From Catajapyx aquilonaris (lineage: Eukaryota): a stretch of 64,000 nt of DNA. The notes beneath the pieces were generated by a model. The model made no database searches and was not told the DNA's origin. It saw only the letters and a program-made list of their open reading frames with translations. Of this stretch, positions 3,914 through 61,648 are shown piece by piece. The stretch spans positions 1 through 64,000 of the forward strand of contig KZ538698.1 in the NCBI GenBank assembly GCA_000934665.2. The letters are read 5' to 3'. A program made the translations under genes and the position numbers. The first letter of the stretch is position 1. Each line of letters starts with the position of its first letter.

Positions 3914-3923
3914 ATTTATATAG

Positions 3924-5870: not shown

Positions 5871-5896
5871 ATAGGTATTTATAATTAATTTAATTT

Positions 5897-21000: not shown

Positions 21001-21409
21001 GCCACAAGTCTCAGCCTCAGGCAACTAAGCTTACTGGGGACATACTCCTAACATAATGGCATTCCCTCACAGACGGTTCGTTTCATACTCTAAGCTGCAC
21101 ATAATATAAGTAAGCTGCTGACCAGTTAATTAGAGTAGTTCAATATAATTAGGGCTATGTGTGATTCAAACAGTTTTGTAAACATTAAGAGAATATAATA
21201 CTGCTTTAAGGGATCATGTTAAACACCTTCTACAATATTAATTAGATGCCTTTTCAATGGACAACTGCAGCTTAGGCTACTACCCTACGTATGAGTTTGG
21301 ACAGAGAAATGTGAGCACTGAGTCACTGACTGCTGTGAGTGGTGCCGAATTAGTCGGTTGGAAGGAGGATTTAAATTTCTATAACTTGTGTGGTAGATAT
21401 TATATGTAC

Positions 21410-21501
<92 letters not shown>

Positions 21502-24500
21502 NACTGTATTGTGCCTCACCTTCACAAAATTAGTACCGCCGTAAATAATACATGTCGCCAGTTAGTTTGACTGCACATGTCTAACTGACAGCCAATTTAA
21601 GCAATTCTCCAACAATTTTGTAAAAATCTCTCGTGGAGTGTGTGCAGCTTTGGCTCTCTGATTTCACTGCTTGTGAACTACGTGTTAGACTGTATAGTTT
21701 TTGCATAAAAATAAATGTGTGCTGGATGAGAAGTGACTGCGATATAATAATCTATTTGCTGTGCAGAGATGCGAATGATGTTGGAGGCAAAGGAGGTTGA
21801 GACAAGTCGAGTGAAGAGAAAGTTGTCTGAATTAGAGAAAGAGGCAGAGGCCATCCGCCAGAGGGAACTGAGCACCGCAGCCATGTATCAGCGCAGACTA
21901 CAAGCCGCACAGGCGGAGCTGGCGGATCTTAAGAGGTTAGTTCAAACTTCCCCCAAGTTTATTCCCATCTCACCATCCAATAGCAGGAATGGCAAATTCC
22001 AGACCAGCATCAGGTTCTGGCTTCCCCAATCGAAATTCCTGTTCCCACCTACGAGTAGGTTCTTCGATCGGAACTGATGGGGATATATTGGTGCAATAGG
22101 GTTGCAAGTCCAGGGTGACAGTAGAGTCTTCATTATAGGAATTAGGAATGGGATCCGAACATCCCTGTAACCCACATCAATACCTTAGCGCCTAATCTAA
22201 GGGCTAAACTAAAGAGAAAATTATTGTCGGAGTGCTGTAACTCTATTGATTGCCTTAGAATAGGCAAACAACCCAAAGTGGTGATTTAACTATGTTTATT
22301 TTGTAAATTGCGCACTTTTTGGACTATATGTCGAATTATTATGAAGTATCCGCGAAGTAGGCATATAAGAAATTTTATACGGCATATAGGCCTACTATAT
22401 ATGTATCTAGCAAGACTGAGTCTCTTTTGTAAATCCATACGCATTTTTTGCAGGGGGTTACGGTGAAATATTAGTTTTGCCATGCACTATATAGGGTGCG
22501 TCAGCACGGAACAAATAGCAGCATAATATGTTGCTAGGTGACCAAAAAAAACCATCGTAAGTTCACCCAACCACACAGCATAAACGTAGTGATTTAGCAG
22601 GAAGCCCTGATTTGTAACTCCAGCAGGCTCACAAACAGAAAGCTTTATTTACTCATAACCTAAAAGCTCCGGATGTGCAGTGAAAAAAATAGTGCCTACC
22701 ATGCAGCATTATTGAATATGTCAAATGCATTCCTACGCTGAAAATTCAGTCACTAGCTGCTTTCTGCAACAAAACGAAATTTAACCTTTTTTGTGCCAAT
22801 CGAAAACTAGGACCATCACATCGGGCACATTCGCGTGTTACACCAAAACGAGGAAATAATTGTGACCGAGCGTCACAGTTACTGACCAACATGTATACAG
22901 TTTCATTGAGCAGCAAATTAACTGGCATGTATGTCGGCTCAACAATTCATGCTGTGGCATAAATAGTTAATGCAAAAGTGGAAGAGAGGTGCACAAGCAC
23001 CATGTCATGCAGTCTATGACAATATCAATATAGGAACATATAAAATACCTCACCTTCAAAATAGCTACTTGCATGTCGTATTCTCTAATCAGTATCATTT
23101 AGTGCGTAACTTTTTTTTAACTGACAATGTAACTACAGTAGATACAAGTTCCTGACATGAATACACGTCTGCATGGCGTTGTGTCACAAGAGCCCTTAAT
23201 AAGCTACTATACTGACAGCTATGGTCAACAATTCAGACATCAGTGTCCGGTAACGGGGCCCATGATCTGAAAGTGAGGCGATAAATCTTTGGCACCACCA
23301 AAAAAAAGGGAAGGACCGGAAATAATAAGAAAAGTTGGACGCAATAAAACCGTCCTCGCGCTGTCTTTGATGCTCCTTTGGCCAATGCAGTGCACAACAG
23401 CCAGAGGCACTTTTTTCCTCCTTTTCTCAGGACAGGAGCCTATTTACACTATGGCGACAGGCGTCGCTATTGTCTGGCAAAAAAAAAAGTTGCGCAAAAA
23501 AATGGTGGAAAGAGTTGAACAGGCGAATCAAGAAATGGAATCCTCCTATCCTCTCTGCACGCTATGACCCGTGAATGGAAATGAGAATCCTGAGGCTATA
23601 TCAAGCCTATCACTCTCAGTAGCCTTTTTTTGTCCCCTGGAATTTACCCCCGAAATGTAATATGGCGGGTTAAAGGGGTGTTCTGCAGAGGAAATGCAAC
23701 GTTATCAAAGGCATCGTGCGTTGTGAGAATGATGCTTGAATATGACACTGCGATGAGAGACACAAAAGATACGCAGGTTGGACCTGCCTCACACATATAA
23801 TGACTTACTGAAAATATACCTAAGACTATTATTTTCATGTCCAAAATTCACACATGTTTTCAGCGTAGCATATACTGTCCTACAAGAAATAAAATAACAC
23901 TTAGATTCATCCAAAATTGGCAAAATTGTAAACGCCTCTACTCACCAGCATAGCATCATCTATTGATCTCCTTTTCTGGCTGGTGAGTGGCATGCACTCG
24001 GGACACTTTGACTCCAATTCCGCTGCTGAACCTCGTCCACTATTTCCTGCAGACACGATCCTCATTACCTCGCCTCGGAACGACTAAAAAAGGAAATGGG
24101 GGGAAGGCCTTGTAATTCCACTAGGTAATTAGACCTGCGATAATTCGCTCCAATTAATATTCTTCTGCGTGTCGCCTGCAAGTTGAGGCGAAACAGTGGC
24201 CACGGAGGAAAACCTCTAGATGCTTGTGTTTTATTGTTTCTGTCTACCCACTTCGCCTATTCTACACTCCTACCCACCACTTGTTTTTTTTTCTGGTTGC
24301 AAGTAGAATGCATCGCACGTTCGAAATACTGTGGACCAATTAGCATTCATAACTTGCTTCACTCGATTATATTCTTCTGCAAGGGGGTAGGGGATGGGTT
24401 ACAATCTGCGTTCACATTCACCGTCTGGTGGGGATGTATAGGATGTTCAAAGCCATTTTCGGGCCCTAAACTGATTTCGTACAAACGTATTTTAAATAAT

Positions 24501-27394
24501 GGCAGATTATGGGGCTTCGCCAGACATATAGCCTACTGTATAGGCTACTCTATAGTCGATCGGATAAGCTGATACTAACTTTTGATATATGATGAAATGT
24601 CTTGTTTGTGGTTAGTGATACCATATGTCACTTAAGAATCAGTGACGTATTCACACGAAGTAATTTCAATGAATTTGAAATGAAAAAAGTGAGCAAATAA
24701 ATTAATAACTAGCTAGTTCCGCAGTTCGAACAGAAGGCGTTCTGGGCATTTACTCCACCGCACGTGAGAGTAGGAATAAAGTTTTAAAAGTGAAAAGGGG
24801 AGAAGAAAAAAAAGTTTCGAAAAGTTCTAGGTACTTTTGAAAGGCGATAAAGTCAGTTTCTGAGCTTCTTTGTCAGCACTCCTACCCTGACTCTTACTTA
24901 TTAGCAGGCCGGTAAGTTATCGCCATATTTTTCGTAGGCTACGCCAGATTAGTAGGCCCTAGCATTATTAGTAGTTTGAAAATATTTTCTCGCGGCCTGC
25001 TCAATTAAATTTTCGAGTTATACAAAAAGGTTACGAGAAAAAGTAGCCTAATTAAGAACTTATATAATATATAAGAACTTATATAAGAAGCCTGTAAGAA
25101 GCAATTAAATGAAACAGGTTTGTTTAAAGTTGCTTTCCAATATTTTGCCAGTTACATTTTTCAAGTCATGAATACAGTCGTTGGCCCAATAAGGTGACAC
25201 ATTTTTAAAGGTCTTCACCGGGTTTGTGTTCATTCCAGTCCTTCTAAAGGCAAAGAATTCTTCCTACCCCTATCTTTATTTCTTCACCTTCCCTCAATAG
25301 ATCGGAGGCAATTTCTTCCTTTCTTTGCTGGACTACTGTTATCCCAAAGTCCTTCTCCCTTCCCATCCGTGGGTGCCCCCCTTGCCCCATTTTCCTTCTT
25401 CTCTTCTACTTATCTTGATCACCCGAGCATGCCAAGATTGCAAATGACGAATTTTAAAGGCGATTTCCGATTCTGGATCCCTTGTGACTGTTTTTTGGGG
25501 TTGGAATAAGATAATTGTGCCTATCCACTCCCTGACCCTACCATTTCCTGGTCTTGATACCTGGCTTATAGGTCTAAGAGTATGCATAATTATTATGATG
25601 CTGCATATTATACGAGAAGATCCTACCACTGAGAAGCTGCCACTTGGTAATTTGCATTGTGTCAAGTTACCCCCAGTAAAGGATAATGCCTTTAGCATGG
25701 CATCATGCTAAAGGCATTACCCTGTACCATGGTTACTTAAACACAAACACTATGATCAACTTCAGGTGTAATATTGCAGCCTGCTAAATGGATAACGGCT
25801 CAGTGACTAACAGTAGACTAATCTACAGTTTATTATACATTGTTGGCACAATGCCATTACAATGTAAATATGAAACATAATAGCGTTGTGCCATGCATAT
25901 GACACTGTATACCGTCTGTTTTAAAGTCAACTATGATTTGTGTATGCGGTTCGTGAACAATGAACATGCTTGTCTCAAGTTGGTGTAATATATTGGCGAA
26001 GCTTCATGTCGGACTGCATGCACATCCACATGCATAATGCAATCCATCATAAAACCAATTACTACGTCAGGAATGTCCGCAAAATTTCCACAGACAAGGA
26101 TCTCCGTTGACTTTTGAAACACGTGGTATCGATCTCCTCTTGACTAATTAGATTTAAACTGCCCGCAGAATCGCAAAATATGCTAACTTCCAAAATGGTA
26201 CCAACAACACTGATGGTATCATGGAGTGACCATATCTTACCGTCTCTTCCCTCTGTTGTCACCATTAGGAAGTTCTCCGAAGAGCATACGTCGGAGCGCC
26301 GGCACCAGGAGGCGCAAATGGATGAACTGCAGGCTGCCGCGGAAGTACGAACTAGAGCTGTGGAGAACCATTGGCGAATGCTCACCTCTCAGAAGGAAGT
26401 AAAACATCAGAAGAAGAGAGAGGAGGCTGCTGGACTGAATGTCAAGGTCTACTGCTCATTTTGACTTGATTGCAAATCAATCACCACACCAGATTACTGA
26501 GATTAGGGATTTCATTTGACTACAATTGGGGAGTGTCAGACCGGATCCACGGGGTGCAGTTTTCCAGTGTTGTCCATACGGGAAAATCCACATAGCCACA
26601 TCCACATAATTCAATGGAACAAACATATTGTGTCAAATAATATATCACTTTTGACCATATTAGGCAAACTTTCGAGCAGCTTATTTAAAGAATGCGATAT
26701 GACACTACAGACCACTGGATACCTGATACCCTTCTCCAACAACTTAGATAGATTACTCACCGGTTGCTATTTCCGCAGTGTGAAATCTTATGAGGCTATT
26801 TCTCGTGGACTTTGGACCTCGTAAAAAGGTGGCTTGAAATACTTTTTATAAATTAAGCCGAGCCCCCTTACATGACAACTTTTCTGAAATTGCAGCATCG
26901 ACCTTCAGATGGTGACGTTCCACTTGCAGCAGCTTAGCTATCACAAGTTGTTATTCAACACTTGGAGCTTCTTATCATGCCGTGAGCCATACAATGTGCC
27001 ATATCATGCCTTTGTCTGGGTTTTTGGTCATTGGGTACAGGTCACCTGCACCATAAACTAAGGAAAAAGTTTTCCACATAAATAATCTCGATGATAGTAT
27101 GACTTTTTGTTTTTTTGTTATCCTTTTTTTTGTATTCTTTGGTGTTACGACTGCAAAGCAGTTCATTCGAGATATGATCAACTTACAGTTTGGTGTCATA
27201 ATAATTAGCCTACAAAAAAACTAATGCATGAATGAATTCCTACTGTGCGTGATAACACTGTGTAATTCCTGATTGTACCTATTCCATGGAATGCAAAAAC
27301 GCATTGATGGAGCCTTATCAACATTGAACTCCCAAAGGGTACTATATCTTTTTGACCCACATTTTGACTTCCAGAAAGTGATAGCATGTAATCA

Positions 27395-27456
<62 letters not shown>

Positions 27457-27473
27457 GTAGTAGTAGTAGTAGC

Positions 27474-27523
<50 letters not shown>

Positions 27524-30500
27524 ATCAAACTCGGACTATCCCTTCCGCAATAGATTATAATAGCTATTAATACACGTACAGTACTACTCATTGGCGTCAG
27601 ACACTAAGCAGTTAACAGTAATATCAATATTAAGTAGCTCCGTAATAGTAGTAGACTGATGATCATATTGTAAACTCATTATGCCTTGCATTTGGCACAC
27701 ATGTTGGTATGACACGTATGGTCGTAAAATTACGGAACAACCCGTGTGACTTCAATGTTTCTCCGAAGTTATTGTTGTTGCTGGGCCTAAACACCATAAC
27801 GTAAAGTAGTTGAACTTTCGAACTTTTAAGCACTAAGCCAACTTGAGCGGAGCTATAACAGTATAAGTTCTAATAATACTACATGCGCATGCTTCTGTTC
27901 CGAATATACTGTCGTGTAACATATGTTACCCGTCCTTTGCGTTCCCCTCCAAAAAAACAAAAAAAAACAAAAAAAAACTTATCTAAGTAACCAAACAAAA
28001 GGTCATATTCTTTTGCACGAAGAAGATAAGGCGTCTGATACGATTTGATGCCAAAGGGTCCACCTTCCCAGCACAAACTCTATGATAGAAATACCTTCCG
28101 CTTATTCCTTCTTTCACCACCTACGCAAATTGGCCACACGCCTGTCTCCGAACAACACACACACAACGCCGGAGAAAATAGATTCGTAAAAATGTACCAA
28201 CTGCCAGACAGCGTATTTCCTCAATATAATGGTTTGTTTTAAAAATATTGTAGCTATTGTCTGATTTTATGCCCTCATTTATATAGTTAGTTCGCCCGCT
28301 ACAAAATGCAATTAGACATAAGAACGAATTCATATGCCACACATAATTTTTGCAATCAGATATGAATATCAAAATACTTAGAAATGGACAATATATTTAA
28401 AACACTATGTATAGGCCTATACAAATTACTGAACCATGGAACCCTTACAAAACCACAAGTGATTATGCCCAATTTATCACATGAAAGTGTTTTATAACCA
28501 GTGCATTGAATTAATGAACTACTTTTGTTTTCAAATTTCACAACGTGTTATTGCATCAGGCAATTCAATTGCGGAGGGTATTGATAACACCAATAGGAAG
28601 TAAAGACAGCCCCCCTTATCTCAAATCGGCGCTGTAATGAAGGGAAGGGTGGGGTAAGTTATGACGGGTTATGATTACAAGCTGAGATTTGGATATAGGC
28701 ACGTGCCATCATTTTAGATCTACTCTACCAAGTAATTTCGTCGCCCCAGCGTATTTTTCTCTCAAAGAATATCTGTTGGGTCTGTGACGTAGAAAGCCTC
28801 CAGGATCGATATCTGCGTCGCTTCCGAATAATATCTGTATAGTGTTATGTGACGGCCAAGTTCATTGACTTGGCCTGCACGTGGCATCGAATAGAGCCTA
28901 CGCGAATTTATTCGACGTCGCAAACACGCATGTGCACCTGTACACAATATGAATAAGACTAGACTTGCAGGTCCTTGCCCAGTATGAAATCCACTTTTTT
29001 GCACTGTTAAAAATACCGAATGTAGAGTACATGCGGCTCACAGTCCATTAATACGGTATCATTATATAGTAAAATTACTATCACAATTTGTAGGAGATAA
29101 TTATGCTAAATTTGTATACAATAAGTTATTTTGGTGCACTGACTGATTAATTTAGAATTTGTTTATGCCCATTATTTTGTTCCCTTCAGTGTCGGGATTT
29201 GGAGAAGAAACTCGCTTTCGTGGAGGGCGATTATGCTAAACTTCAGCTGCGTTTATCCGATTTCGAAAACGAGATCGCCATGCTGAAAAAGAGCCTCCAG
29301 ATTGTATCAGACTCAAGAGAAACAGCCATAAAATCATTGGAAGAGGAACAGAAGCGTCGAAAGACAGCAGAACAGACTTGGGCAGACCAGTAAAAATTGG
29401 ACCATTTTTTATTTTGAGACCCCAAAATGTTTCAATTTATTTTTCAATCCAGCGGATCCAAGATGAAGCAAGAGCTCATGAAGCTGATGAGCCAAGACAA
29501 ACCCACCGTACTGGTGTCCGAAGTATCTCACCTTCAGCAACGATTAGCAGCCGCCGAGAAGCTCAACATCGATCTCCGTCAAGGTTTACAACATCAAGAG
29601 AAAAGGTGATTAACACGCGATTACCACCCAAATCATCGAGTTAATAAGCCCTTATTTCACAGGCACCAAAACGAGATTCGCATGATGGAATCCAAGCACG
29701 AGGCTAAGATTCAAGTGGTCCTTGAAGACATGCGTCTTCTGGAAGAAGAGTCTCGAAAACTAGAAGCCGTCTTACTGAAGAAGCAGTTAAAAGGTCGGGT
29801 TGACACTAACCAAATGGGACCTGACGCCAAGCAAGGTCAGGATAGTGAGAAGGCCAATCAGCAAGGACTTCGCGCAAAGCAAGGTACAGTTGAGTATTGG
29901 CTTATCTCCTATCTTGAATGGATGTTCAAGGGCTTCTTTGGTAAGAAGCAGTTTTCAGTGAATGGCCTTCGAACCAATTGCGGGCTCGTATCAGTATAGA
30001 TGATGACATTGCTTCATTTGGCGTGTGTGAAAAATTGCCGTGTGGGTTAGATTTATGTGACGGTGTGTGTCTACCGTGGTGTCTACGTTTCGATTGCTCG
30101 GTACAAGAGCGCACGCTACTATGACGACAGACATCGATTGGCTGCTGGGCAAATCTGCAGAGTTGCCGAATCTGACCCCTTGACGGAGAGCAAAATTTGT
30201 CGAGCTCTATTTTTTTTTTCCAGATGAAGGGTGTGAGACAACGTCCTTGATATTTGAGATAAACCTTGTTTGCCATGTTGCATACTGTGCAGGATGACAC
30301 ATTTCCCACGTGGTTTTGCAGTCAGATTTGGGTTGCAATGTTAATGCCAAGTTACTATTTTCACAGACGAAGAAAGGGAAAGTCGGCTGGAAAGCCGACT
30401 ACAAACTATGGAGGCATTACTCCAGGACCTCCATCAGTCCAAGAATAAAGAAACCGACCTAGACCCCCAGGAAACAGCCAGGGAGATACAAGACCTGGAA

Positions 30501-30815
30501 AAGACCGCCGAAGAGCTCGGCCATATGATTCTGACACAACTGACTAGTAAGGGCGCGTTACCCTCCGACCCCAACAGTGTCCTCAAGCTCTTCGAGTACC
30601 TCAATCGCACCTTCCACGATAACAGAAGGTCAGAGTTGGCCGCCATCCGAAACCTGCAAACCCAGGTCAAGCAGTTGAAGATGACAGTGACCGAGTACAA
30701 GGCGACACCTCCGGAAGAAGTCATTGTCAAAGGTGTTTCGGCCCCAATGGTACCCAGGCCATGCCGACCGGTCATCAAAATTGTGGCACAACCTAAGCGA
30801 CATGTACGTCTCTAA
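15088..30815 (+). CDS. CCDC57: Coiled-coil domain protein 57-like gene, 8 exons, 550 aa
   Basis: Exons 15088-15099, 15771-16041, 21767-21935, 26269-26446, 29190-29389, 29453-29605, 29663-29883, 30367-30815 join by GT-AG in frame (1653 nt). LEKDFCFNLRLLGERD resembles CCDC57 LQEDFVYNLQVLEERD. AATAAA at 31230. Exon 1 is least certain. Confidence 0.75.
15771..16041 (+). CDS. CCDC57: CCDC57-like exon 2
   Basis: CTCTCGTAG acceptor, AAAG|GTATTT donor; carries the conserved DFxFNLxLLxERD motif. Confidence 0.8.
18515..18716. mobile_element. TTAA-flanked (piggyBac-type) MITE with internal ~60-bp tandem repeats
   Basis: TTAA|CCACT...AGTGG|TTAA; repeated TTTGGTACTCCGGTGTACACCTGTAGTGGTA unit. Confidence 0.6.
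19230..19463. other. Assembly gap (234 N)
   Basis: Run of N. Confidence 1.
21409..21501. repeat. (TA)n microsatellite
   Basis: Directly visible. Confidence 0.95.
21767..21935 (+). CDS. CCDC57: CCDC57-like exon 3
   Basis: TGTGCAG|AG acceptor, AAGAG|GTTAG donor; coiled-coil peptide MRMMLEAKEVETSRVKRKLSELEKE. Confidence 0.85.
26269..26446 (+). CDS. CCDC57: CCDC57-like exon 4
   Basis: CATTAG|G acceptor, AAG|GTCTAC donor; phases match neighbours. Confidence 0.8.
27397..27523. repeat. Compound (TTA)n(GTA)n microsatellite
   Basis: Directly visible. Confidence 0.95.
29190..29883 (+). CDS. CCDC57: CCDC57-like exons 5-7 (29190-29389, 29453-29605, 29663-29883)
   Basis: Three coiled-coil exons separated by 63- and 57-nt GT-AG introns with consistent phases. 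Confidence 0.85.
30367..30815 (+). CDS. CCDC57: CCDC57-like terminal exon
   Basis: TTTCACAG acceptor, open to TAA at 30813-30815. Confidence 0.8.
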
Positions 30816-31117
30816 GGGTGTGTCATGAAGGCCAACCGGTTGACATTAATTCAACATTGCATAACGCCCATTATTTCCTTGTTGAGTTTTTCAAATATTT
30901 TTTTATAGTTTGATATAAGCTACCAGCCTGGGGGCTTATTTATGCGGTTCGTGACGCCAGTCGTTGACGTTCAGGCATTCATTAACACTATATTCAGCTG
31001 CCACTTGTAACAATCGCGGTTGAAGGTCGTGAACCGATCGTCTTCCTGGCTTCCTGGACCCAATCCTTGTTGTACCTGTCGCCCCTAGGTTAGTCCTGCT
31101 ATTTTTGTTGAATATAC

Positions 31118-31128
31118 CGGTCACACTT
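31118..31128 (+). promoter_or_regulatory. Ohler motif-1-like element upstream of MCRIP
   Basis: CGGTCACACTT versus consensus YGGTCACACTR, ~390 bp upstream of the MCRIP ATG. Confidence 0.35.
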
Positions 31129-31514
31129 GTCACATGCTGGCGAACCACATCGGCCTTTGCCAGGTGTGTCGCAACATTTGGACCATATCCAACAATTCCG
31201 GTTACATTTTTTTTGTGTAATCAATGTACAATAAATATGTAGCATCCTAACCTTTGACATTGGCAACCTCTAACCGTACACCCTACTGAAATAATTTGTA
31301 CCGGCAAGAGGTACCGGTGTATCGGTATCCCCCTCCCGCTACGTATCCTTGAAACACCCCCCCCCTCTGGGCAGATTGGATGTGACCTAGCATGGGGGGG
31401 TGTGAAGCTCGAGGCTGGCGGGGGAGGCCGGGTGGAGCGGAGGGCTCCCTTTTTAAGCCTTTACCCACAATGCTATTCCAGAGACAGTCTGCGCAGGGAT
31501 CCGATCCAGAGAAG

Positions 31515-34500
31515 ATGTACGCGCTCAACAAGGCGCCAAGGAAAATCGTGGCCAAAACCAGGCGTGGTAAGAAGACACCCCCCACACCACCCAGTCCTCC
31601 ATACCACACCCCACCCTATGCTGTCAACTGTGACCCCCACCACCCCTCCGCCGCCCTTCCCACTGCTCACACACAAAACCCTCACCCCTCTTTCGGTTTT
31701 GGTTTGCGCTCAGCTCGATCTCTTCAAAACATTGGTTGTTTTTTTTTTGTTTGACCCCGTTTCCTCTTCCATTTCTTGTTTGTCTCGCAGGACTTCCCCA
31801 GAAGTTCGAGAGCCTGGAAACGTTTAGGGATCTGACAAGAAAGAAGTCGGATAACGAGGAGGTGGAGATGAGGTGAGGATGGTGACCTGCTCAATAAGCT
31901 TGGGGATGTGTTGTAATGTTGGTTGGCATGCTAAGGGTTGGGAGTGTGGGATGTCCCAGCTGTTGTCCAGCACATGCAGAGTCAGGCCTGGCTCTGTGCG
32001 GACTAGTGTGGTGGTTTGTAAATTTGTTGAGGCCTGGTTCACATGTGGCCACTTTAAGTCGCAGAAACTGACCACTTTTGGAAAGTGGTAAGTTTCTGTG
32101 GCCAGTTGCTGCGACTAAAAGTGGCCATGTGTGCACCTGGCCTAAGTTGCGGCTCAGAGGAGACGAGTACACTGAGGTCCACTTTGGTCACTTGTAGCCA
32201 CAAGGTAATTGTTGCTCCAGGGGGTCAGCTTGCAAGACAACCCCCTAGGTGCAGGTCAGAAACCCCCACCGACCACTGCACCTCCCCATGGATGGGTCAA
32301 GGATAGGAATGGAAGGGGGCGGCTGTGGCCTATTATTTACAGTAGTGACCCCGGAATTTTCCTGGGAGGACCGTGGAAAACCACAGAAAACCAGTCAGGA
32401 TCGCCGGCCCCGGGACTCAAACCCAGGACCTCCCGATTAGCAGTCAGACGCCTTATCCACTCCACCAACCTGCATCGGTAAACCACGTAGATTTCGGCTT
32501 ATGCGTACTCCGAAGATATGGAGAAGATATTTTACAAATAATAACAGCTATACTTACCCGTCCAGGGAAAACACTGAATGTGTCGGGAACAGTTTTACTC
32601 GTCTAGAAGTCCCTAAATTAATTTTCAAAAAAAGGTAATAAAAACTCGAATTATGAGTACTTCCGGCCAACTGTTAGGCTGATTTAATTATGAAATGCAT
32701 GAATATATGCGGAATAACAACCTTGAGAACCATGCCAGACGGGATTTGCTGAAATCTTCGTACTTTACAAGAAATAAATAAATACGTATTTGCAGCTTTT
32801 TGCCACTTCGCGAGAAGTAAATGTGAGTTTTCCGAAGTGCCAGAAAGCTGCAAATACTGGAAGTATTAATTTATTTCTCGCCAAGTACGATGATTTCAGC
32901 AAATTCGTCTGGCATGGTTCTCAAAGTTGTTGTTCTGCATATTTTCATGCATTTAATAATTAAATCAGCCTAACAGTTGGGCGGAAGTACTCCAATATCG
33001 AGTTTTCATAGCCTTTTTTGGGAAATTAATTGCGACTTCTAGACAAGTAAAACTGTTCCAGACACATTCATCATGTTTTCCCTGAACGGGTAAGTATAGC
33101 TGTTATTATTTGTAAAATATCTTGTCCGTATCTTCGGAGTATGCGTAAGCTGAAATCTATGTGGTTTGGGCCTATCTGGTAGTGAAGGGGTTAAATGAGT
33201 CAGTTATAATGGTGCTCTATGTGTGTTACCTTGTACAATTCTAATGGCCACAGTAATTATTTTGTGCCAATTTTTAGGAGGTTGCGTGGTTCCCACATGA
33301 AGGCAACTTTTTTTCCCCATTGATTATTATGTGCCTGTTGCATTTGCACGGCAACAAAAGTGCCTAGGTGATGCTGGGGTAGAAGAACACCTCTATGTCT
33401 TTAGAACACTATGTGCCATTGGACTGAAGGAATTGGGAACCCAGTGTACTTAGATTTCATGCGGTTCCTTGGTCCACTCATATTCCCTACTTTCACTCGA
33501 TATTCCATGGAACGCAAAACCGCAAGTGCTATGTTCGGGGTGAGTTGGGGGGGGGGGGGATGAAGTCGATGAAGTCCCACTCACCATACAGCTCCTGCTC
33601 AAGCGACAAGCGTTGAACCACCTGGTATGGGTTCAGTTTTGCTGTTGGAACTATTTATCCTGCACTCTATTCTGCAAATCATAATAATTGACAGTTACAT
33701 GCATCAGGGGTCCCTTACTCTGTGCAGCCGTGTCACGAGGTCTGGGTTGGCCATGCCCAAGGACAGCCTTCGTCACCCGTCTCCTTATGGAATTCAGTAC
33801 CTTCTGCCTAGCGGCAGACAGGGTATTTATCAGTCCTAAACGCTTAGATCTTGCGTTGATGACTTATGATGACGGGCGAACTGTTGTCTGGATGATTGGA
33901 CATGATGTCTGGATGTGGTGGCTTATGACTGGGTGATGGATGACTGGTGGCAGCCAAGTTGATGTTTTGTTTTGTATTAATTTTGTTGTAAATGTCAGAG
34001 TGAATGGGCTGTTGGGCCTTAACGGGCATGGTCGGTCCAATAAATTCCTAATCAGTTACATTTTAAGGGCGATAGCCCTTAAGTAAGACCGTAGCATAGC
34101 GTTTCAACAATGAATTTTTCCTACTTGTTGTTCTTCTTGTTCTTCTTGTTACGTTTTTTTTATTCGCCCTAACTCAAGTTCTGCTGTAGGTAGAGCTTCC
34201 AAATTTTGAACGCAGATCCCCACCGTCGTGACTTGATTTCCTACCATTTACACTTTTACTTAATTCCTCTTCAAAACGCCGCAAAAAATTTAAAACCACT
34301 AAAAAATACGGTTTAATTTTTTAGCTCAGTAACTATTCGGAATTTGGTTCCTTCATCAAAGGGCCGAAGGTGCAGTGGGATGGTGCGGATCTATGTTCAA
34401 AATCTCACAGTTCCCACTGCTGCAGGATTGGAGCTGTGATTTTTTTACCTCTTATTTTTTCTTTCATTAATTCATTTGTTCATAATGCCATCACCTTGAA

Positions 34501-37500: not shown

Positions 37501-40500
37501 CACTAGTAACCATCAGCAATCAAGGCAAAGTTCTCGGGGCAAAGTATTTGCAAACAAAAAATAATAATAATAATTCATACACCATTATCAGCCATCGGCT
37601 CTTTAGGGGGGAAGTTTGTTTTGCCTGGAACTGTTTGCTTTCATTTTACTGTGGTCTTTGGGATAGGATAGGGACGGAAGGAAGCGGCTGTGGCCTATTA
37701 ATTACAGAAGCAACTCTGGAATTTTTCTGGAAGGACCGTGGGAAACCACAGAAAACCACGGTCAGAGTTGCCGGCCCCGGGATTTGATCCCAGGACCTCC
37801 CGATTAGCAGTCAGACACCATATCCCCTCCTCCAAACTGCTTCGGTACAAAAAAAATAATAATTAAGAAATTAAGGAAATAACTGGAGATCTGATGGTTG
37901 TACATTACCCGGAAACGTTTGGCTAAAAAAAATTCTCCAGTAAAAGAAATTTAAATGAGCTTTCATTTACTTATGAGATGAAGCTGAAAATAACTTTTTT
38001 TTAGCTCACAAAAATGGTATGTGATATCAGTTTTGTCAGCCATCTTGTATCCAATATGATTTTAGAGGTGTGCACCCTGACACTCTGAATTTTTCTTGCA
38101 GTTCACCAAAGCCTATATTCCATAGCACAGTCAACGGACGGAAGTTAAACAGTCAGCATTCTCAACAAGAGATCATTACACCCCAGCATGAAGAGCTTAT
38201 TAAATACGTATATGGCTGTGAGTTAGATATTTTGATATCTGCATGCCCTCAATAGACAGAACAAATGGTACACTACTGGGAAAAGTAGCCTTTTACTCCC
38301 TCAAGCAGTGCCAGTGCGGCACAGGTAGAAGTATGGGCGAGTGTGAGTTGATTAACGCGTGCTTCCACTTGCACCCACTTGCCTGGCTGCTTGGTGCTGC
38401 ATGCGGAGGTTCAAGACAGATTTTTTCCGGTAGTGCGCTATAGTGCTACTATCTGTTTATTTAATATAGATCCCTGTGTTTGACTCTAAAAGACTCCCAG
38501 GCAAATTATCCAAAAAAATAATGGTATGTATCGTTAGAAAACTTGTTTAAATCCACATTACATATATGCGAGTTGTTTTCCTATCGCCAGTCTCTAATTT
38601 TTTATGATAAAAAGGAGGAAAAGTGTCATTTTTTGACTAGTTGACGATGTTACACCACAAAGTGAATTTTTTATGACACTTTCAGGAGGCCAAAAAAATC
38701 CACCTGTGAACCCTGGATAGTGCACATTTTTATCTATCTAATGATATATTTGAAACATTGAGATCGCCATTTCTGTAATCATGATTAAGTTAATTGCACA
38801 CCTCTGTTATCTCGGCTGTTTATAATCCGAATTACTTCACGAATGTATCGACTGCAAGCCAGAAATGTGCGTGATAAGATTACACCGTACTCTATTACAC
38901 TAAATTTTTTAAAAGTATTTAACCCTTAACTAGTGACCTGGAAAATCCTAACACTCACGGTGACCTGGGGTGTTTAAAGACCCCAGGGGATTTTTAAAAT
39001 ATAAATTGCCTTTAATGATAAATATTTGCTTTTTAACTCTTTTACACAACACCTGCAACTGTTTTCTACAATTTGGTTTAATTTTCAACTCTCTAGCTGC
39101 CGTAGAACGGAATTTAAAAAATCATATACCTAACTACAATGAAACATTTTATAACAAAAAAATTGCACCTGGGGTGTTGAAAGACCCCAGGTCACCAGTT
39201 TTAAGTGTTAAAAGTATCACCGTCTATTCCCGCCAGAAAGCGGGCTGGGTCCTTTTCTATTAAGCTTACTAAAACAATACTTTAAAAAAATTTAGTGTAA
39301 TAGAGTAGAGTGTAATCTTATCATTTAACATTTCTGGCTTGCCTTCGATACATATGCGAAGTAATTCAGATTATAAACAGCCGAGATAACAAAGGTGTGC
39401 AATTAACTTAATTATGATTACAGAAATGGCGATCTCGATGTTTCAAATATATCATTAGATGGATAAAGATGTGCACTATCCAGGGTTCACAGGTGGATTT
39501 TTTTGGCCTCCTGAAAGCGTCATAGAAAATTCACGTTGTGATGTAACGTCGGCAACTAGTGAAAAAATGACACTTTTCCGCCTTCTTTTTACCATAAAAA
39601 ATTAGAGACTGACGATAGGAAAACAACTTGCATATATGTAACGTGGATTTAAACAAGCTTTCTAACGATACATACCATTATTTTTTTGGATAATTTGCCT
39701 GGGAGTTGCTTAAAAGTCAAACACAGGGCTCTATATTAAATCAACAGATAGTAGTACATATTCACCTCCACTTCTTGATACGTAGATTGTTCCAGTCATG
39801 GCAGACATGTTTTTACTCAAACCCTGATAATTGCACAGGATATTTCAATGGAAATATGTCTGTGCAGGTTTACAATTTTTTGGCACTAAGCAGAAACTAA
39901 GCAGAAGTGTGCACATGGGCAATTTGGTGCAAAAGGGTTCATAAAACAGATTATATGCAAGTAAATCCTACCTGTAACAGATGCTTGAATTTCGATCTAA
40001 TACTTCTGGTAAATCATGTATTTTACTTTCCAGCATGGAACAAAGTTGTCAAGGAATATGAACAAGTTCAGCAGGAACTAGATAATGGCCAAGGTAATGG
40101 GCTATCTTCTCTTTTTGAACAAGTTTTTGATATGATAATTCAACCCTACACCCTAACTTACTCTATATTTGTTTTGCAGGGCGCTCAAGAAACCCAAGTG
40201 TTGTCTATTATGATGAAAGGCCCCACTCCATAGAAGGTGAGGTTTTATCACATGGTCTGGTATAATAAATTATTGAGACTTTGAGAGACAAATAGGGACA
40301 GTTACAGACTCGCATGGTACTCATAACTTCAGGCAGTTTGTTGATGGGTGGTGGAGGAGTCTGACAGCATCTATGTAAAGGTGGTAGCGCACCTCCAGTC
40401 ACACCAAGAAGGAACCGAGTTCTTATGAACAAGCGAAAATTGGAGGGGGGAAAAAATGTTTTACATTTTGTGTTTGGGATGGTGCTTTAGAGAATGTGAT

Positions 40501-56584: not shown

Positions 56585-56963
56585 TATGTTTGAGGAGCTG
56601 AATGTGCTCAACACTTCTCTGCAAGAGGTCAAATCAAGCAACATTGTTTCATAGCATGAAAACAAGTGAAATTTTTCTTCAACTCGAACTCTGGCTGGCA
56701 GGAAAAAGTTGAGAAATCTACATTTGAAATGTTTCATCGGCTACAGGAGTGTGTCGAGGACAGTGGCTCAAAATTCAAGAGCGAGTCACCTCCACACACT
56801 TGCAAAAAAGGAGGGTTTCGGGGAGGGGGTCACGCATTTATGGAAACATGCCCAAAACTTCTTGAGTTAGGTTAAAATGAACTCTGTCAGGTAAAAAATT
56901 CCAGCACAAACACAACACTGTAGTGTGAAGTATATTTGACTTTATCCCCAAAAAGGCCAGCAT

Positions 56964-59900
56964 TCAATACACTTCCAGATCATGCGAGAAGAATATGGCT
57001 GCATTGTCCCCACCACAAATGAGGCTGGACCGGAAAACATCCAGAGTGTTGATGGCCAGGTGGGAGTCGGGCAGCGCTGCCTTGGTTGCTACCCGTCCTT
57101 GCGCCAGACTACCACTGAGCCACAGCGATTCCATGGGTGCCTTCAGTGCCTGCGAGTATGTGCCGCCGGCTCTGGACTTGAGTGCATCATTCCACTGCCA
57201 AGTCTCTCCTCCAAATGAGCAAGTGAACAGATGGTTCGGATTCAAGGGATGGAACTTCAGCTCACGGACTGGGGAAAAAGCAGCTCAATTATCCGACAAT
57301 TGCGGAAGAACATGCCAGTACCTTCTGATGTATGTCCCTTAAGCAGGGTGACAGGATACTTTTCCCTCCGGATGTCCCATATTCCGAGTGTCCCTTCCTC
57401 CGTCCCTGTCGCAACAATGTGGGGCTGGGTTGGATGCTGATCAATGCAGGTTATGCCCACCATCTGCAAGGATAATTACTGAATTCACATTTGTGCAGGC
57501 TCATTATAGATGTACCTTGTCTTCGGAGAAGGTAAATATGGCAGCGGGTTTATCACATGAGGTAAGCAGATCGTATACTTTCAGCTGACCTCGCAGGTTG
57601 GCCACCATCAACTCATTGTGCTTTAAGTAGCAGACACTTGTTAGCCAACCGCTCTCGCCTTTATCTGCAAACATTTAATTATACAGTCTAGCTTCAGTAA
57701 TTAATGAACTGTGTTCGTTACCGATGGACCGCATTGGCTCTTGTCTTGCCGGGTTGAGCATAACTATCCTGCCGTCTTCGCCAACAGTTGCGATTTCCTC
57801 CTTAAAATTAGTAACTGCAGTGCATGGCAGCTCTTTGTACCTACAGACAATATGGCACCAGTTAATTCGTATTTTACAATAAATCTTACAGCATGAGTTT
57901 GTTTCTGAAAATCAATTGGTACTTTTTGTGAATCCCCGTCCATCCCCGCAGCAGCTTGAACTTCCAAGCTGCATTGAGGGGGGGTCCAGCCAAATAGATT
58001 TCGTACAGCCGTACGCTCCCGTCAGAGCTAGCGGTCAGAAAGCGATCCGAGTCCATGAACTTGATGTCCATGAAATCGGCCTGTTGAGCCGCCATGTCTA
58101 CACCGACCGGCATGAATCCTTTTCCAGTCAAATCCTCCTGCTGGAACTTCCACAACTTCATCTCATTAACCTGCAAAAACGTGCATTAGAATTTTGCACT
58201 CACATGCTTGTAACACTTAAGTAAGTTCGGGTAAGTGCGACAATGGGGAAAGTCCGGAATTGCTTATAATATATAACATAAGGTGGCAGGAGCTATCAAA
58301 AATCACGAAAACGTTCATGATGACCTTTGTCCACTCTGCTAAAAGTAGCACAACCTTCTCTCTTTCATAACATCAAGAGCTAAGTTATTAGCTAAAATAG
58401 CAGCCAAGTGCAAGGTGGCCTTTAAACTTTGGCAAGTATGTAAGTATCATTTGCAGAATTTCTCACGAGTCATGAATCTCATGCTGCATAACCACTCTGG
58501 AAGTGTACATAAGAGGTTAAGGTGTGCTGTCACGCTGTTATTGTTCCATTTTGGTGGTATAATCATGCTGGTTTTAAACGGGGCCGCACTTGCCCCTAAC
58601 AAGTCATGGTCAGGGGCAAGTGCGCACCCAATTAATATGATGGATCGAATTGCAATATTGGGGGAATAAAACTAGCGGGCACCAAAAGAGGAGACAAGAC
58701 ATATTTTTGTGGGTCACCAGTGGATATTTTGCAAATGGCAACTGGCTAATTTCGAACACTGGTGTGAAAACACTTCCACAGAATGCATTTAAATCAGATA
58801 ATGCCAGTACCATTAGCCAACCTGTTGCAGAGCAGTGAATAAAAGTGTGTCATGTAAGAACTCATCAGAATTTTTTAAAATTCAGAATATACAGACTGAC
58901 AGAGGAAGTTTGTGTCTTTGTGGCACTAGTCCTATGCAACCAGAGCAATGTTTATTACTGTGAGAGAATTCCACAGTTGCACTTACCCCATATCGCGGGG
59001 CACGTGCGGCACTGTGCACCACGTGCATATTTTAATTATTTTTCGGAGCACCCACATAGATGAATGTTATGCAATACGCCATTTTGAAAGGCAATAATAA
59101 GGTAAGGTACATCCCAGGTATCAAACCCATATGTGCACTGCAACTTTTTCTATTTTGAGCCCATATTTGGCCCATATTGGACTCATATTAATTAATATTA
59201 TGGCCCCCCATATGGGTCCAATATAGAGAAAAGTTGCAGTGCCCATATTGGCTACCCATATTGGACCCATATTAATATGGGCTGGCATTGTGGGCTGCCC
59301 AGATGGGGCCCATGTAGGGGCTGCCTCGTCAGAATCACGGGAAGTGACTTACTATTAGCTGCAACCTCGTTGCAGTCTTACACTCTGACAGGCTGTTGCG
59401 ATGGTTGGTTGTTTGGTTGCCAGAGAAGTCTAGAAGTGCCTGGCTTGTATGGCTCTTTTTGTTGAGCCTTTGCAGAAAAAGCCGCCTTTCCATACTGAGA
59501 GTTGTCCTGCTTGCACCAAAAACATTGCCATCGAACTATTCTAGCAAATTTATGTCACAATGAAGTAGGTCGGGGGTAAATGAGCCGTATGCAGTTGAGT
59601 CTCCTGCCACCTTTGTGCACATGTAATGACCAAAATTAATTCGCATTGTTGTGGGATAAATCGGAGAAGACTTGCAACAATAATCCGATGGCAGCGCCAT
59701 ATGGACGTGGGTTGAATATGGGCTATTTGGCCCCACATACCCCAGAGGCTGAATGTGGGCACAATATGGGCTATATGCCCCCACATAGCTCACATAGTGC
59801 CCATATGGGTTTAATATGGGCTATATGGAGCCCATATATGCCCACATAGGCCCCCATATAGCTTGCTACCTGGGATATTGTCCATCACTTATTGCTAAAT

Positions 59901-60166
59901 ACTGAGGAAGTAGCATGCCTTTAAACCGCACCTAATCAAAATCCGGCCGCACTTACCCCGACTTACCCTGTTTATTCCCCCCCCCCCCACGCCCCTATTT
60001 TTAACTGCACTTATTTTATTCTGCCCAGTTTAAGAACCTTGCTCCCCCATGATCCTGTCAGGAAGACTTGTGTTGACTGTGATCCAAGGAACCAATCTTC
60101 AGAGGCGGGTCTCCATCTGATTTTGCTCACTTTGTGAGGCGTGAACTTCGCAAAAGAACGCTCCAT
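56964..60166 (-). CDS. NUP43: Nucleoporin Nup43 (WD40), 6 exons, 363 aa
   Basis: Exons 60166-60038, 58170-57923, 57840-57722, 57664-57516, 57463-57322, 57268-56964 join in frame (1092 nt). Motifs KVSKIRWRP, FLTGSW, IATVGEDGRI, HPTQPHIVATG, FHPLNPNHLFTCS, INTLDV. Confidence 0.95.
59113..59874. mobile_element. CACTA/EnSpm-type non-autonomous element in NUP43 intron 1
   Basis: AT|CCCAGGTA...TACCTGGG|AT (2-bp TSD) with dense subterminal CCCATAT/ATATGGG repeats. Confidence 0.75.
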
Positions 60167-60277
60167 TTCCGACGCGACCTCAGTCAGACGGGGCTCAACC
60201 AGGCTCAACTGTCACTAACGGTCACAGCCATGGAGGTAGTAAAATAGTGGCCATTTTATAGTCGCTCCAACCGGTGT

Positions 60278-60373
60278 CCAGGATTGGTCAAAATAACGCG
60301 GGTCACGATTGGTCAAAACAACGCCGGCGTTGTTTTGACCAATCGTGACCCGCGTTATTTTGACCAATCCTGG
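60278..60373. repeat. 96-bp perfect spacerless palindrome in the NUP43 promoter region
   Basis: Centre GCC|GGC at 60325/60326; each arm has two GATTGGTCAAAAYAACGC units. Confidence 0.95.
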
Positions 60374-60490
60374 CGGCCGGTCACTAGCGTCCCCACCCCC
60401 ATTCCCCAACTGAACAGCCTGGGGGTGTGGGTGGGTGAGGTTCCGCAGGATGGAACAGCCGCTTACACGTCCGCGCTTTTGTGGGTAGGG

Positions 60491-60497
60491 TATAAAA
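60491..60497 (+). promoter_or_regulatory. TATA box ahead of the histone H3 fragment
   Basis: TATAAAA followed by CATTC at 60515-60519. Confidence 0.45.
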
Positions 60498-60553
60498 CGG
60501 CCAATTTTCCCGCCCATTCGACCAGTCTTGATCAGGTGCTAGCTGAATCGCGT

Positions 60554-60736
60554 TTGTTTGAGGACACCAACATCTGCGCCATCCACGCCAAGAGGGTCAC
60601 CATTATGCCCACCAGCTTGCCCGCCGCATCCGTGGAGAACACGCTTAAAATCTACAGCCCCTGTTAACCTCATCCGACCTCATCACTAAAAAAACAGCCC
60701 TTTTCAGGGGTACCACACCTATCACGTAGAGAGAAG
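60554..60736 (+). pseudogene. H3: Histone H3 3' fragment with stem-loop and purine-rich downstream element
   Basis: LFEDTNICAIHAKRVTIMP[7-nt deletion]QLARRIRGEHA*; AGCCCT-TTTC-AGGGGT-ACCA at 60696-60715; AGAGAGAAG at 60728. Confidence 0.9.
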
Positions 60737-60803
60737 TTATGCAATTCTGAGCATGTAGTTATTAAGGTAGCACCATTGTCGACTGGCTTGTTTGTACCGG
60801 AAG

Positions 60804-61040
60804 GGAAACGCTGCTCTCGACAAGGTGACCTGGATCATACCCCGCCTATTTGAGGACGCCAGCCTGTGGGCCATCCACACCAAATGGGTCACCATCATGG
60901 CCAAGAACATCCAGCTCGCCTGCCGCATCCGTGGAGAGCAACCCTATTTCCACCTGCCCACATTTGATAACAGCCCTGTTCAGGGCTACCACACCTGTCA
61001 CGTTGAGATATGCAGTTAGTAATTAAGGTAGCATCATTTC
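60804..61040 (+). pseudogene. Chimeric histone H2A/H3 fragment with histone stem-loop
   Basis: [14 protein letters not shown] (H2A GNAARDNKKTRIIPR) in frame with [31 protein letters not shown] (H3); AGCCCT-GTTC-AGGGCT-ACCA at 60972-60991. Confidence 0.8.
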
Positions 61041-61239
61041 GCAAGGAAATGGTTGCGCTAGTAAAGACATGACTCCGCTTGACCCCTAACCCCCAGTATC
61101 TAGTAGTCCTCATACAGCAATGATAATGGAGATGGGAAAGGAAAGGCAGGTGTTGGTGTATGTGTTAATTGGAACTGGGAGGTGTGAAGCCCAACATCCA
61201 TGCCACGCTGCTGCCCAAGAAGATGGGGTAGGTGTTACT

Positions 61240-61324: not shown

Positions 61325-61648
61325 TCCGGGGTAGTGCTGACCTCATCAGAGGTACGTAGCATGGACCTTAATTTATTATGTCAAGTACATTGGAGCCTTT
61401 ATACGTAACGCCCGGGCCCACGGGCAGGATGACAGGAGGGGATGTGCAAGGTGCAGTGGATCTGACGCTGTGGCCATTTTTAGTGAACTTCCCCGGGTGG
61501 TTTAGTCTGTGGAAGTACCACCCGAGACGAAGCCAGAGGTGACCCTGAACTCCGCACGAGATGAAGGGGGTGTCCCCGGGTTGGGATCGAACCCGGGACC
61601 TAAACATCCGTGGGCGCGTACGTTACCGTAGCACCACTTCGCCTCCCC
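61242..61648 (-). mobile_element. tRNA-derived SINE (family A) with (TTA)n tail
   Basis: Reverse complement of the 2161 copy; 16-bp TSD GGGTAGGTGTTACTTA (61226-61241, 61649-61664). Confidence 0.9.

What the first reader, a model, noticed from the sequence alone, without database searches (positions are those of the whole stretch)
60480..60780. Mini histone-gene cassette divergent from NUP43: promoter and 3' processing signals kept, coding region mostly gone
Seen: TATAAAA (60491), CATTC (60515), ~35 nt, only the last ~33 codons of H3 with no upstream ATG, a stem-loop with one stem mismatch, ACCA, and a purine-rich element 17 nt on. Sequence past the cleavage site is shared with the second cassette, so it is DNA-derived, not a retrocopy. 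Known: stem-loop plus downstream element direct SLBP/U7 3' cleavage. Inference: it could yield a ~200-nt non-polyadenylated histone-type ncRNA, or terminate NUP43 upstream antisense transcription; the null is a dead orphon.
Basis: partly seen in the sequence, partly recalled or inferred. Interest (0 to 1): 0.75.

Follow-up and report, generated by a model that had tools for sequence, protein, structure and literature searches.

The report
Scrambled histone debris beside NUP43 duplicate
The supposed mini histone gene is most likely a dead patchwork of histone-gene scraps with a damaged RNA-end signal, but the neighbouring nuclear-pore gene copy seems to have acquired a histone-type promoter from the same wreckage.

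Summary
The motifs are present at the stated places, but the cassette is not an H3 gene that lost its middle and kept its signals. It is a chimera: an H4-type promoter and leader fused to H3 codons 104-136, which carry a 7-nt frameshift. The second cassette is an H2A piece fused to the same part of H3. The stem-loop's second pair is broken, which is true of only 2 of 198 such hairpins in the genome. Signals are no better kept than the coding remnant (1/41 vs 4/94 private changes; weak test). CATTC sits 7-9 nt too close to TATA. Verdict: decaying histone orphon debris (0.8); functional ncRNA about 0.07.

Side result: NUP43 has two intact copies (dN/dS 0.14). In this copy, about 50 nt before the ATG, the upstream DNA becomes an H3-type CCAAT-CCAAT-TATA promoter inside a palindrome. 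Its 17-mer occurs elsewhere only at histone promoters (6 of 6 exact hits). It may drive NUP43 (about 0.45); expression is untested.

The scan earlier noted gene-less histone stem-loop repeats elsewhere in this genome. I confirmed such a family; this cassette is not a member.

The parts
56964..60166 (-). NUP43 copy A: six exons (60166-60038, 58170-57923, 57840-57722, 57664-57516, 57463-57322, 57268-56964), intact 363-aa ORF, all introns GT-AG
   Evidence: Gene model (by eye, no RNA support); top PDB hits of exons 1 and 2 include human NUP43, E 0.0007-0.002; paralog at G000:C776:34924-36321
60198..60218 (-). Last upstream stretch shared with the other NUP43 copy (5' leader); homology ends here
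   Evidence: 18 of 21 identical; 2 of 5000 shuffles reach the score when only the 70 nt before each ATG are compared; not significant in a 400-nt search space
60241..60325 (-). H3-type promoter (two CCAAT 17-mers at 60307-60323 and 60282-60298, TATAAAA at 60260-60254) pointing at NUP43
   Evidence: Local score 66 against the H3 promoter of L029, shuffle maximum 37 of 500; 17-mer elsewhere only in histone promoters
60270..60381 (.). Palindrome of 112 bp (53 of 56 pairs; inner 48 perfect) holding four copies of the histone CCAAT 17-mer
   Evidence: no other copy found in the genome
60382..60556 (+). H4-type promoter and leader: GTCCG element 60469-60473, TATAAAA 60491-60497, homologous cap-like site about 60524; CATTC 60515-60519 is not at the usual spacing
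   Evidence: 82.5% over 60430-60509 to the promoter of an intact H4 gene (L021); GTCCG upstream of TATA in 7 of 8 other H4 promoters printed; spacing
60554..60648 (+). H3 codons 104-136 plus stop, with a 7-nt deletion near 60611; joined to the H4 leader over a 3-nt overlap
60696..60715 (+). Histone stem-loop 1 with a G.G mismatch at the second pair (60697/60710), then ACCA
   Evidence: folds in a shifted register with a 3-nt loop, -6.4 vs -9.0 kcal/mol for an intact H3 copy
60726..60737 (+). Downstream-element-like purine tract with a 5-nt insertion after its core
   Evidence: Alignment with 21 H3 3' regions; pairing to U7 untested
60804..60846 (+). Decayed piece of H2A coding sequence, fused to the second H3 remnant over a 3-nt overlap
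   Evidence: Scores 35-44 against three H2A genes; 0, 0 and 1 of 1000 shuffles reach them; junction
60846..60946 (+). Second H3 remnant (codons 104-135), stop lost, 12 private substitutions, mostly replacements
60972..61038 (+). Stem-loop 2 (stem intact, first loop base T>G), downstream element and flank shared with cassette 1
61088..61223 (+). Further decayed H2A C-terminal coding piece (clearest at 61177-61223)
   Evidence: tblastn E 0.003; 83% over 47 nt to L086

Best explanation
60240-61230 is the wreck of a small dispersed histone cluster (an orphon-type pseudogene mosaic). DNA deletions and fusions at short overlaps joined an H4 promoter and leader to the last third of an H3 gene (cassette 1) and an H2A piece to another H3 3' end (cassette 2). 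SHOWN: chimeric anatomy, frameshift, broken stem pair, single copy. INFERRED: the signals look preserved only because cassette 1 died recently (three of its four private coding changes are silent, as if inherited from a working gene). The H4-type TATA may still fire weakly, but the roughly 190-nt product would bind SLBP poorly, be cut inefficiently and have no function. If anything here is under selection it is probably the left, H3-type promoter arm, which has replaced the upstream region of an intact NUP43 duplicate.
For: Promoter and leader are H4-type. 7-nt frameshift. Cassette 2 is an H2A-H3 fusion and more H2A debris follows. Second stem pair broken in only 2 of 198 genomic hairpins; fold shifts to a 3-nt loop. 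SLBP's base-specific contact is to the G of that pair, and a mutant altered in the 5' adenosines plus that pair does not bind SLBP (PMC10388802 and PMC3884669, passages). Private changes in coding vs signal: 4/94 vs 1/41 (Fisher p 1.0) and 12/101 vs 3/41 (p 0.55), pooled p 0.45. Broken H3 copies are common: at least 6 of 27 fetched loci have a nonsense codon, frameshift, lost stop or truncation, and four of them (L003, L008, L016, L018) still carry perfect stem-loops. L018 is another H3 3' fragment broken at the same codon.
Against: The rate tests have little power, and the point estimates lean slightly towards better-kept signals (2.4% vs 4.3%; 7% vs 12%). The G that SLBP contacts is retained; only its partner changed. 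The H4 GTCCG element and TATA are intact. Cassette 1 has fewer private changes than cassette 2 (5 vs 15, binomial p 0.04), which could mean constraint. The genome has a real multi-copy family of H4-type promoter plus non-coding body plus stem-loops, so such RNAs may exist in this organism. The direct parents of the pieces may be missing from a 20,583-contig assembly.
Confidence: 0.8

Rival explanations
1. Functional histone-type non-coding RNA of about 190 nt (60524-60716), capped and ended by SLBP/U7 cleavage, acting for instance as an SLBP sink.
For: TATA, H4 GTCCG element, ACCA and GAGA core are intact. A gene-less family with an H4-type promoter and twin stem-loops exists in this genome (6 of 12 sampled hairpin loci). 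Cassette 1 is less decayed than cassette 2.
Against: Broken second stem pair (2 of 198), shifted fold, insertion beside the downstream element, no excess conservation of signals, single copy. The multi-copy family keeps perfect stems in copies only 74-88% identical over their long blocks, which this cassette does not.
Confidence: 0.07
2. The two hairpins terminate upstream antisense transcription from the NUP43 promoter by U7-type cleavage; hairpin 2 backs up the damaged hairpin 1.
For: Divergent TATA boxes 231 bp apart share a CCAAT palindrome. Hairpin 2 folds canonically (-9.2 kcal/mol), and GTTC loops occur in other hairpin loci. No AATAAA/ATTAAA on the plus strand before 61845.
Against: Both hairpins carry changes absent from 21 of 21 aligned H3 3' ends at the rate of the flanking dead coding DNA. 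The other NUP43 copy has no such structure upstream.
Confidence: 0.08
3. A copy of the mobile gene-less repeat with histone stem-loops that the scan noted elsewhere in this genome.
For: Same outline: H4-type promoter, no gene, two hairpins.
Against: Against 12 hairpin loci the window shares only the 18-29 nt hairpin with the 11 histone-less ones. Genome searches return only histone genes. Its hairpins are 276 nt apart, not 28.
Confidence: 0.03
4. Assembly or amplification artefact: an inverted chimera made the palindrome and the joins.
For: Fragmented assembly; the inner 48 pairs of the palindrome are perfect.
Against: The arms diverge outward into related but different H3-promoter sequence, and each piece has its own decay.
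Confidence: 0.02

Closest known systems
Histone orphons / dispersed histone pseudogenes from birth-and-death evolution (concept recalled; search listing only)
   Same: Solitary, DNA-derived histone-gene fragments with promoter and 3' flank, decaying by frameshift and substitution.
   Different: Here the pieces are fusions between histone types (H4 promoter to H3 end; H2A to H3 end) packed against the start of an intact non-histone gene.
Replication-dependent histone mRNA 3' end (Rfam RF00032; SLBP plus U7 snRNP; PMC3884669 and PMC10388802, passages read)
   Same: Hairpin, ACCA and purine-rich downstream element at the same spacing as this genome's intact H3 genes.
   Different: Second stem pair is G.G in hairpin 1; first loop base changed in hairpin 2; no histone ORF upstream.
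Promoter capture by duplicate genes, e.g. primate LRRC37 taking promoters from BPTF and DND1 (PMC3371713, abstract and outline read)
   Same: A duplicate gene whose upstream region is replaced by a copied promoter of an unrelated gene.
   Different: The donor would be a replication-type histone H3 promoter, amplified into a four-CCAAT palindrome, and the recipient a spliced nucleoporin gene. Activity is not shown here.
Gene-less twin stem-loop repeat of this genome (earlier scan notes; re-examined)
   Same: H4-type promoter, no gene, histone hairpins.
   Different: No sequence homology beyond the hairpin; that family is multi-copy with intact stems and hairpins 28 nt apart.

Membership tests
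Functional replication-dependent histone gene | Intact histone ORF with ATG | tested here: not met
   Only codons 104-136, frameshifted
Functional replication-dependent histone gene | TATA promoter of histone type | tested here: met
   H4-type promoter, score 119 vs shuffle maximum 35
SLBP/U7-processed RNA end (RF00032) | 6-bp stem with G-C second pair and 4-nt loop | tested here: not met
   Hairpin 1 has G.G at pair 2 (2 of 198 genomic hairpins lack C there) and folds with a 3-nt loop. Hairpin 2 meets the stem but has a changed loop base.
SLBP/U7-processed RNA end (RF00032) | Downstream element complementary to host U7 | tested here: inconclusive
   GAGA core matches intact genes; host U7 not found with RF00066
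SLBP/U7-processed RNA end (RF00032) | Transcript ending 4-5 nt after the stem, bound by SLBP | not testable with these tools
   Needs RNA data and a binding assay
Histone orphon/pseudogene | Homology to histone genes with disabling lesions | tested here: met
   Truncation, frameshift, lost stop, replacement changes
Histone orphon/pseudogene | Outside an intact cluster; DNA-derived | tested here: met
   No intact histone gene in the 64-kb window (tblastn); promoter and post-cleavage flank present
Histone orphon/pseudogene | Neutral evolution | tested here: inconclusive
   No difference between signals and coding scrap, but few changes; no sister species held
Gene-less twin stem-loop repeat of this genome | Sequence homology to family members and multiple copies | tested here: not met
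Promoter capture by a duplicate gene | Recipient has a paralog with a different upstream region | tested here: met
   C776 copy: no homology beyond about 50 nt before the ATG, no TATAAA in 600 nt
Promoter capture by a duplicate gene | New upstream region is homologous to another gene's promoter | tested here: met
   Caveat: a one-mismatch form also lies in the H3.3 promoter, so part of the match may be a shared factor site.
Promoter capture by a duplicate gene | The captured promoter starts the recipient's transcript | not testable with these tools
   Indirect only: intact ORF, dN/dS 0.14

The most novel reading that the evidence does not exclude
A duplicate of the nucleoporin gene NUP43 has been rewired onto a replication-type histone H3 promoter, amplified into a four-CCAAT palindrome. 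The locus looks like a divergent H3/H4 promoter pair whose H3 side now drives a spliced non-histone gene (possibly S-phase-timed) while the H4 side fires into a dead H3 scrap. The boldest extension, that the H4 side makes a functional histone-ended ncRNA or terminates antisense transcription, I put at about 0.15 in total.
Probability: 0.45. Interest if true: 0.5.

Novelty: new member of a known kind. Interest (0 to 1): 0.3.

Why it matters
The by-product matters more. If the H3-type promoter drives the NUP43 duplicate, it is a natural test of whether a histone promoter alone can give a spliced non-histone gene S-phase timing or histone-locus-body recruitment, with the other NUP43 copy as built-in control.

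Tried and rejected
Expression: the look-up of sequencing runs for window 56900-61200 (kind rna) gave no RNA holder listed; this is no evidence either way, and no reads were laid. Host U7: RF00066 found nothing at E <= 1 (65 of 48,450 candidates scored), so downstream-element pairing is untested. Rfam at gathering threshold: 0 hits in the window. The microRNA-family hits at 60285-60368 (best 47.7 bits, cut-off 70) just reflect the palindrome and were rejected. Searches for NUP43 relatives with exon 2 failed: no hit or generic WD40 proteins, so the lineage and the ancestral NUP43 copy were not determined; no shared neighbours between the two copies were seen. L058 looked like the reciprocal 5' half of the H3 remnant but is an intron-bearing H3.3-type gene. 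At two mismatches the 17-mer is at background (113 hits vs 97 for the reversed control), so only exact and one-mismatch hits were used. A paper search for the TGGCAAC motif upstream of the C776 copy gave nothing usable (listing only). Searches for a histone promoter captured by a non-histone or nucleoporin gene and for non-coding RNAs with histone stem-loops listed no such case by title; the library is open-access only, so this does not show absence from print. No supplements were read.

Full report
OBSERVATION. The window is G000:C1289:1-64000 of a 286-Mb, 20,583-contig assembly. 'Arthropod' comes from earlier scan notes and was not tested here. The flank shared by the two cassettes matches exactly only at 60756 and 61017; three further hits have two mismatches, against two for the reversed control. 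The gene on the minus strand is NUP43: exons 1 and 2 hit human NUP43 among their top PDB matches, and a six-exon model gives an intact 363-aa protein.

ANATOMY. A genome search with 60440-60780 gave 33 matches, a lower bound. Those I fetched and examined lie in histone loci. The promoter part (60430-60509) matches one other place, at 82.5%, and that place is the promoter of an intact H4 gene. Over 60382-60556 the H4 locus scores 119 (shuffle maximum 35); the six other promoters tried score 16-49. The GTCCG element upstream of TATA is present in 7 of 8 other H4 promoters printed. The H4 leader joins H3 codon 104 over a 3-nt overlap, and the H3 scrap has a 7-nt deletion. Cassette 2 is an H2A coding piece (60804-60846) joined over 3 nt to H3 codons 104-135, and more H2A debris follows to 61223. 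The locus is therefore a mosaic of H3, H4 and H2A scraps, not one H3 gene with its middle removed.

ARE THE SIGNALS KEPT? A pattern leaving the partner of the second stem G free finds 198 hairpins in the genome (reversed control 1). Only 2 lack C there, and cassette 1 is one of them. It folds in a shifted register with a 3-nt loop at -6.4 kcal/mol (33 of 200 shuffles as good), against -9.0 (0 of 200) for an intact H3 end. PMC10388802 (passages) states that SLBP binding needs this G, the only base-specific contact. PMC3884669 (passages) states that a mutant changed in the 5' adenosines and the second pair does not bind SLBP, and that fly SLBP is essential for cleavage. The G itself survives here, so loss of binding is inferred, not shown. 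I aligned both cassettes with 21 H3 3' regions (all 21 loci given to the script passed; they are 21 of the 33 matches). Private changes in coding vs hairpin-to-downstream-element were 4/94 (plus the deletion) vs 1/41 for cassette 1 and 12/101 vs 3/41 for cassette 2; Fisher p 1.0, 0.55 and pooled 0.45. This shows no excess conservation, but power is low and the estimates lean slightly the other way. CATTC lies at position 26 from TATA, against 33-35 in 19 of the 20 promoter rows that have it (27 rows in all). Broken H3 copies are common (at least 6 of 27 loci), and four of them keep perfect hairpins. Cassette 1 has fewer private changes than cassette 2 (5 vs 15, p 0.04). Three of its four coding changes are silent, which fits recent death better than RNA-level constraint but does not exclude it.

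INTERNAL CONTROL. Earlier scan notes described gene-less stem-loop repeats in this genome. I fetched 12 of the 198 hairpin sites, chosen from contigs I had not already examined. Eleven have no core-histone match. Six form a family with twin intact hairpins 28 nt apart, five of them showing an H4-type promoter (the sixth is cut by its contig end); five belong to a second repeat group. The window shares only the hairpin with them. A maintained element of this kind looks different from cassette 1.

THE NUP43 SIDE. A 112-bp palindrome (60270-60381; 53 of 56 pairs) holds four copies of a CCAAT 17-mer. The pattern has 10 exact hits in the genome and 0 for the reversed control. The six outside the window are all histone promoters, five H3 and one H2B. 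Of seven one-mismatch hits outside the window, four have an H3-type gene in the fetched locus, one lies about 1.9 kb before an H3.3-like gene, and two have none. On the minus strand the left arm continues into a TATA box and aligns with an H3 promoter (66 vs shuffle maximum 37), 94 nt before the NUP43 ATG. NUP43 has a second intact copy on C776: 305 of 359 residues identical, dS 0.57, dN 0.078, ratio 0.14, bootstrap 0.10-0.20 (pairwise, so not branch-specific). The copies share leader sequence only to about 50 nt before the ATG. The C776 copy has no TATAAA and one CCAAT in 600 nt. So this copy's upstream region has been replaced by histone promoter DNA while its ORF stayed intact. Caveats: no expression data; the old initiator-like sequence in the shared leader may still set the start; the motif also occurs at the H3.3 promoter, so part of the similarity may be a shared factor site; and which copy is ancestral is unknown.

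MECHANISM AND VERDICT. Most likely (0.8), rearrangement at short overlaps in a fast-turning histone family left a pseudogene mosaic whose plus-strand cassette is young debris with a damaged 3' signal. Rivals: functional ncRNA 0.07, antisense terminator 0.08, mobile repeat 0.03, artefact 0.02. Separately, capture of an H3 promoter by the NUP43 duplicate is about 0.45. The nearest precedent I read is LRRC37 (PMC3371713, abstract and outline). (listings only, open-access library) showed no histone-to-nucleoporin case. The orphon concept is recalled; one search gave only a listing. Interest 0.3; new member of a known kind.

Noticed in passing
window 60167-60381 and G000:C776:34324-36321 (L048): NUP43 is duplicated; both copies are intact (dN/dS 0.14). 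The window copy's upstream region is an H3-type promoter palindrome; the other copy's is TATA-less with two TGGCAAC motifs.
   Followed up: yes
window 60554, 60846; L018 (G000:C2582:22510-22700): Three H3 3' fragments break within about 5 nt of each other at codons 103-104, each with different upstream DNA: a possible recombination hot spot. Unexplained.
   Followed up: partly
L078, L080, L081, L083, L088, L089: Multi-copy gene-less family with twin intact stem-loops 28 nt apart and, where visible, an H4-type promoter; a better ncRNA candidate than this cassette.
   Followed up: partly
L079, L082, L084, L085, L087; also L005, L008, L011: Second repeat group ending in a single histone-type stem-loop, some with a GTTC loop, also inserted inside histone clusters.
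   Followed up: partly
L011, L013, L019, L009, L012: Intact-ORF H3 variants with strongly altered residues 26-33 and 77-82 (two lack K27), under histone promoters with perfect stem-loops.
   Followed up: no
L058 (G000:C3136:5193-8209): The H3.3-type gene has a TATA-less promoter with the same double-CCAAT module as one replication-type H3 class.
   Followed up: partly
L043, L009, L023: Further histone chimeras: H3 CCAAT module fused to an H2B promoter; an H2B-type 3' end straight after an H3 end; an insertion of about 370 nt in an H3 leader.
   Followed up: no
window 58171-60037: NUP43 intron 1 is 1867 nt here but 102 nt in the other copy; both start GTTC. The long intron has repetitive inserts.
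   Followed up: partly
G000:C776:about 21000-33200 (L049, L048): Open frames that look like exons of CLCA-type genes upstream of the second NUP43 copy (label recalled, not searched).
   Followed up: no
window 3921-5873, 38493-39706, 61390-61648: Long inverted repeats (705-nt arms, 98%) and tRNA-like dispersed repeats, probably foldback or SINE elements.
   Followed up: no
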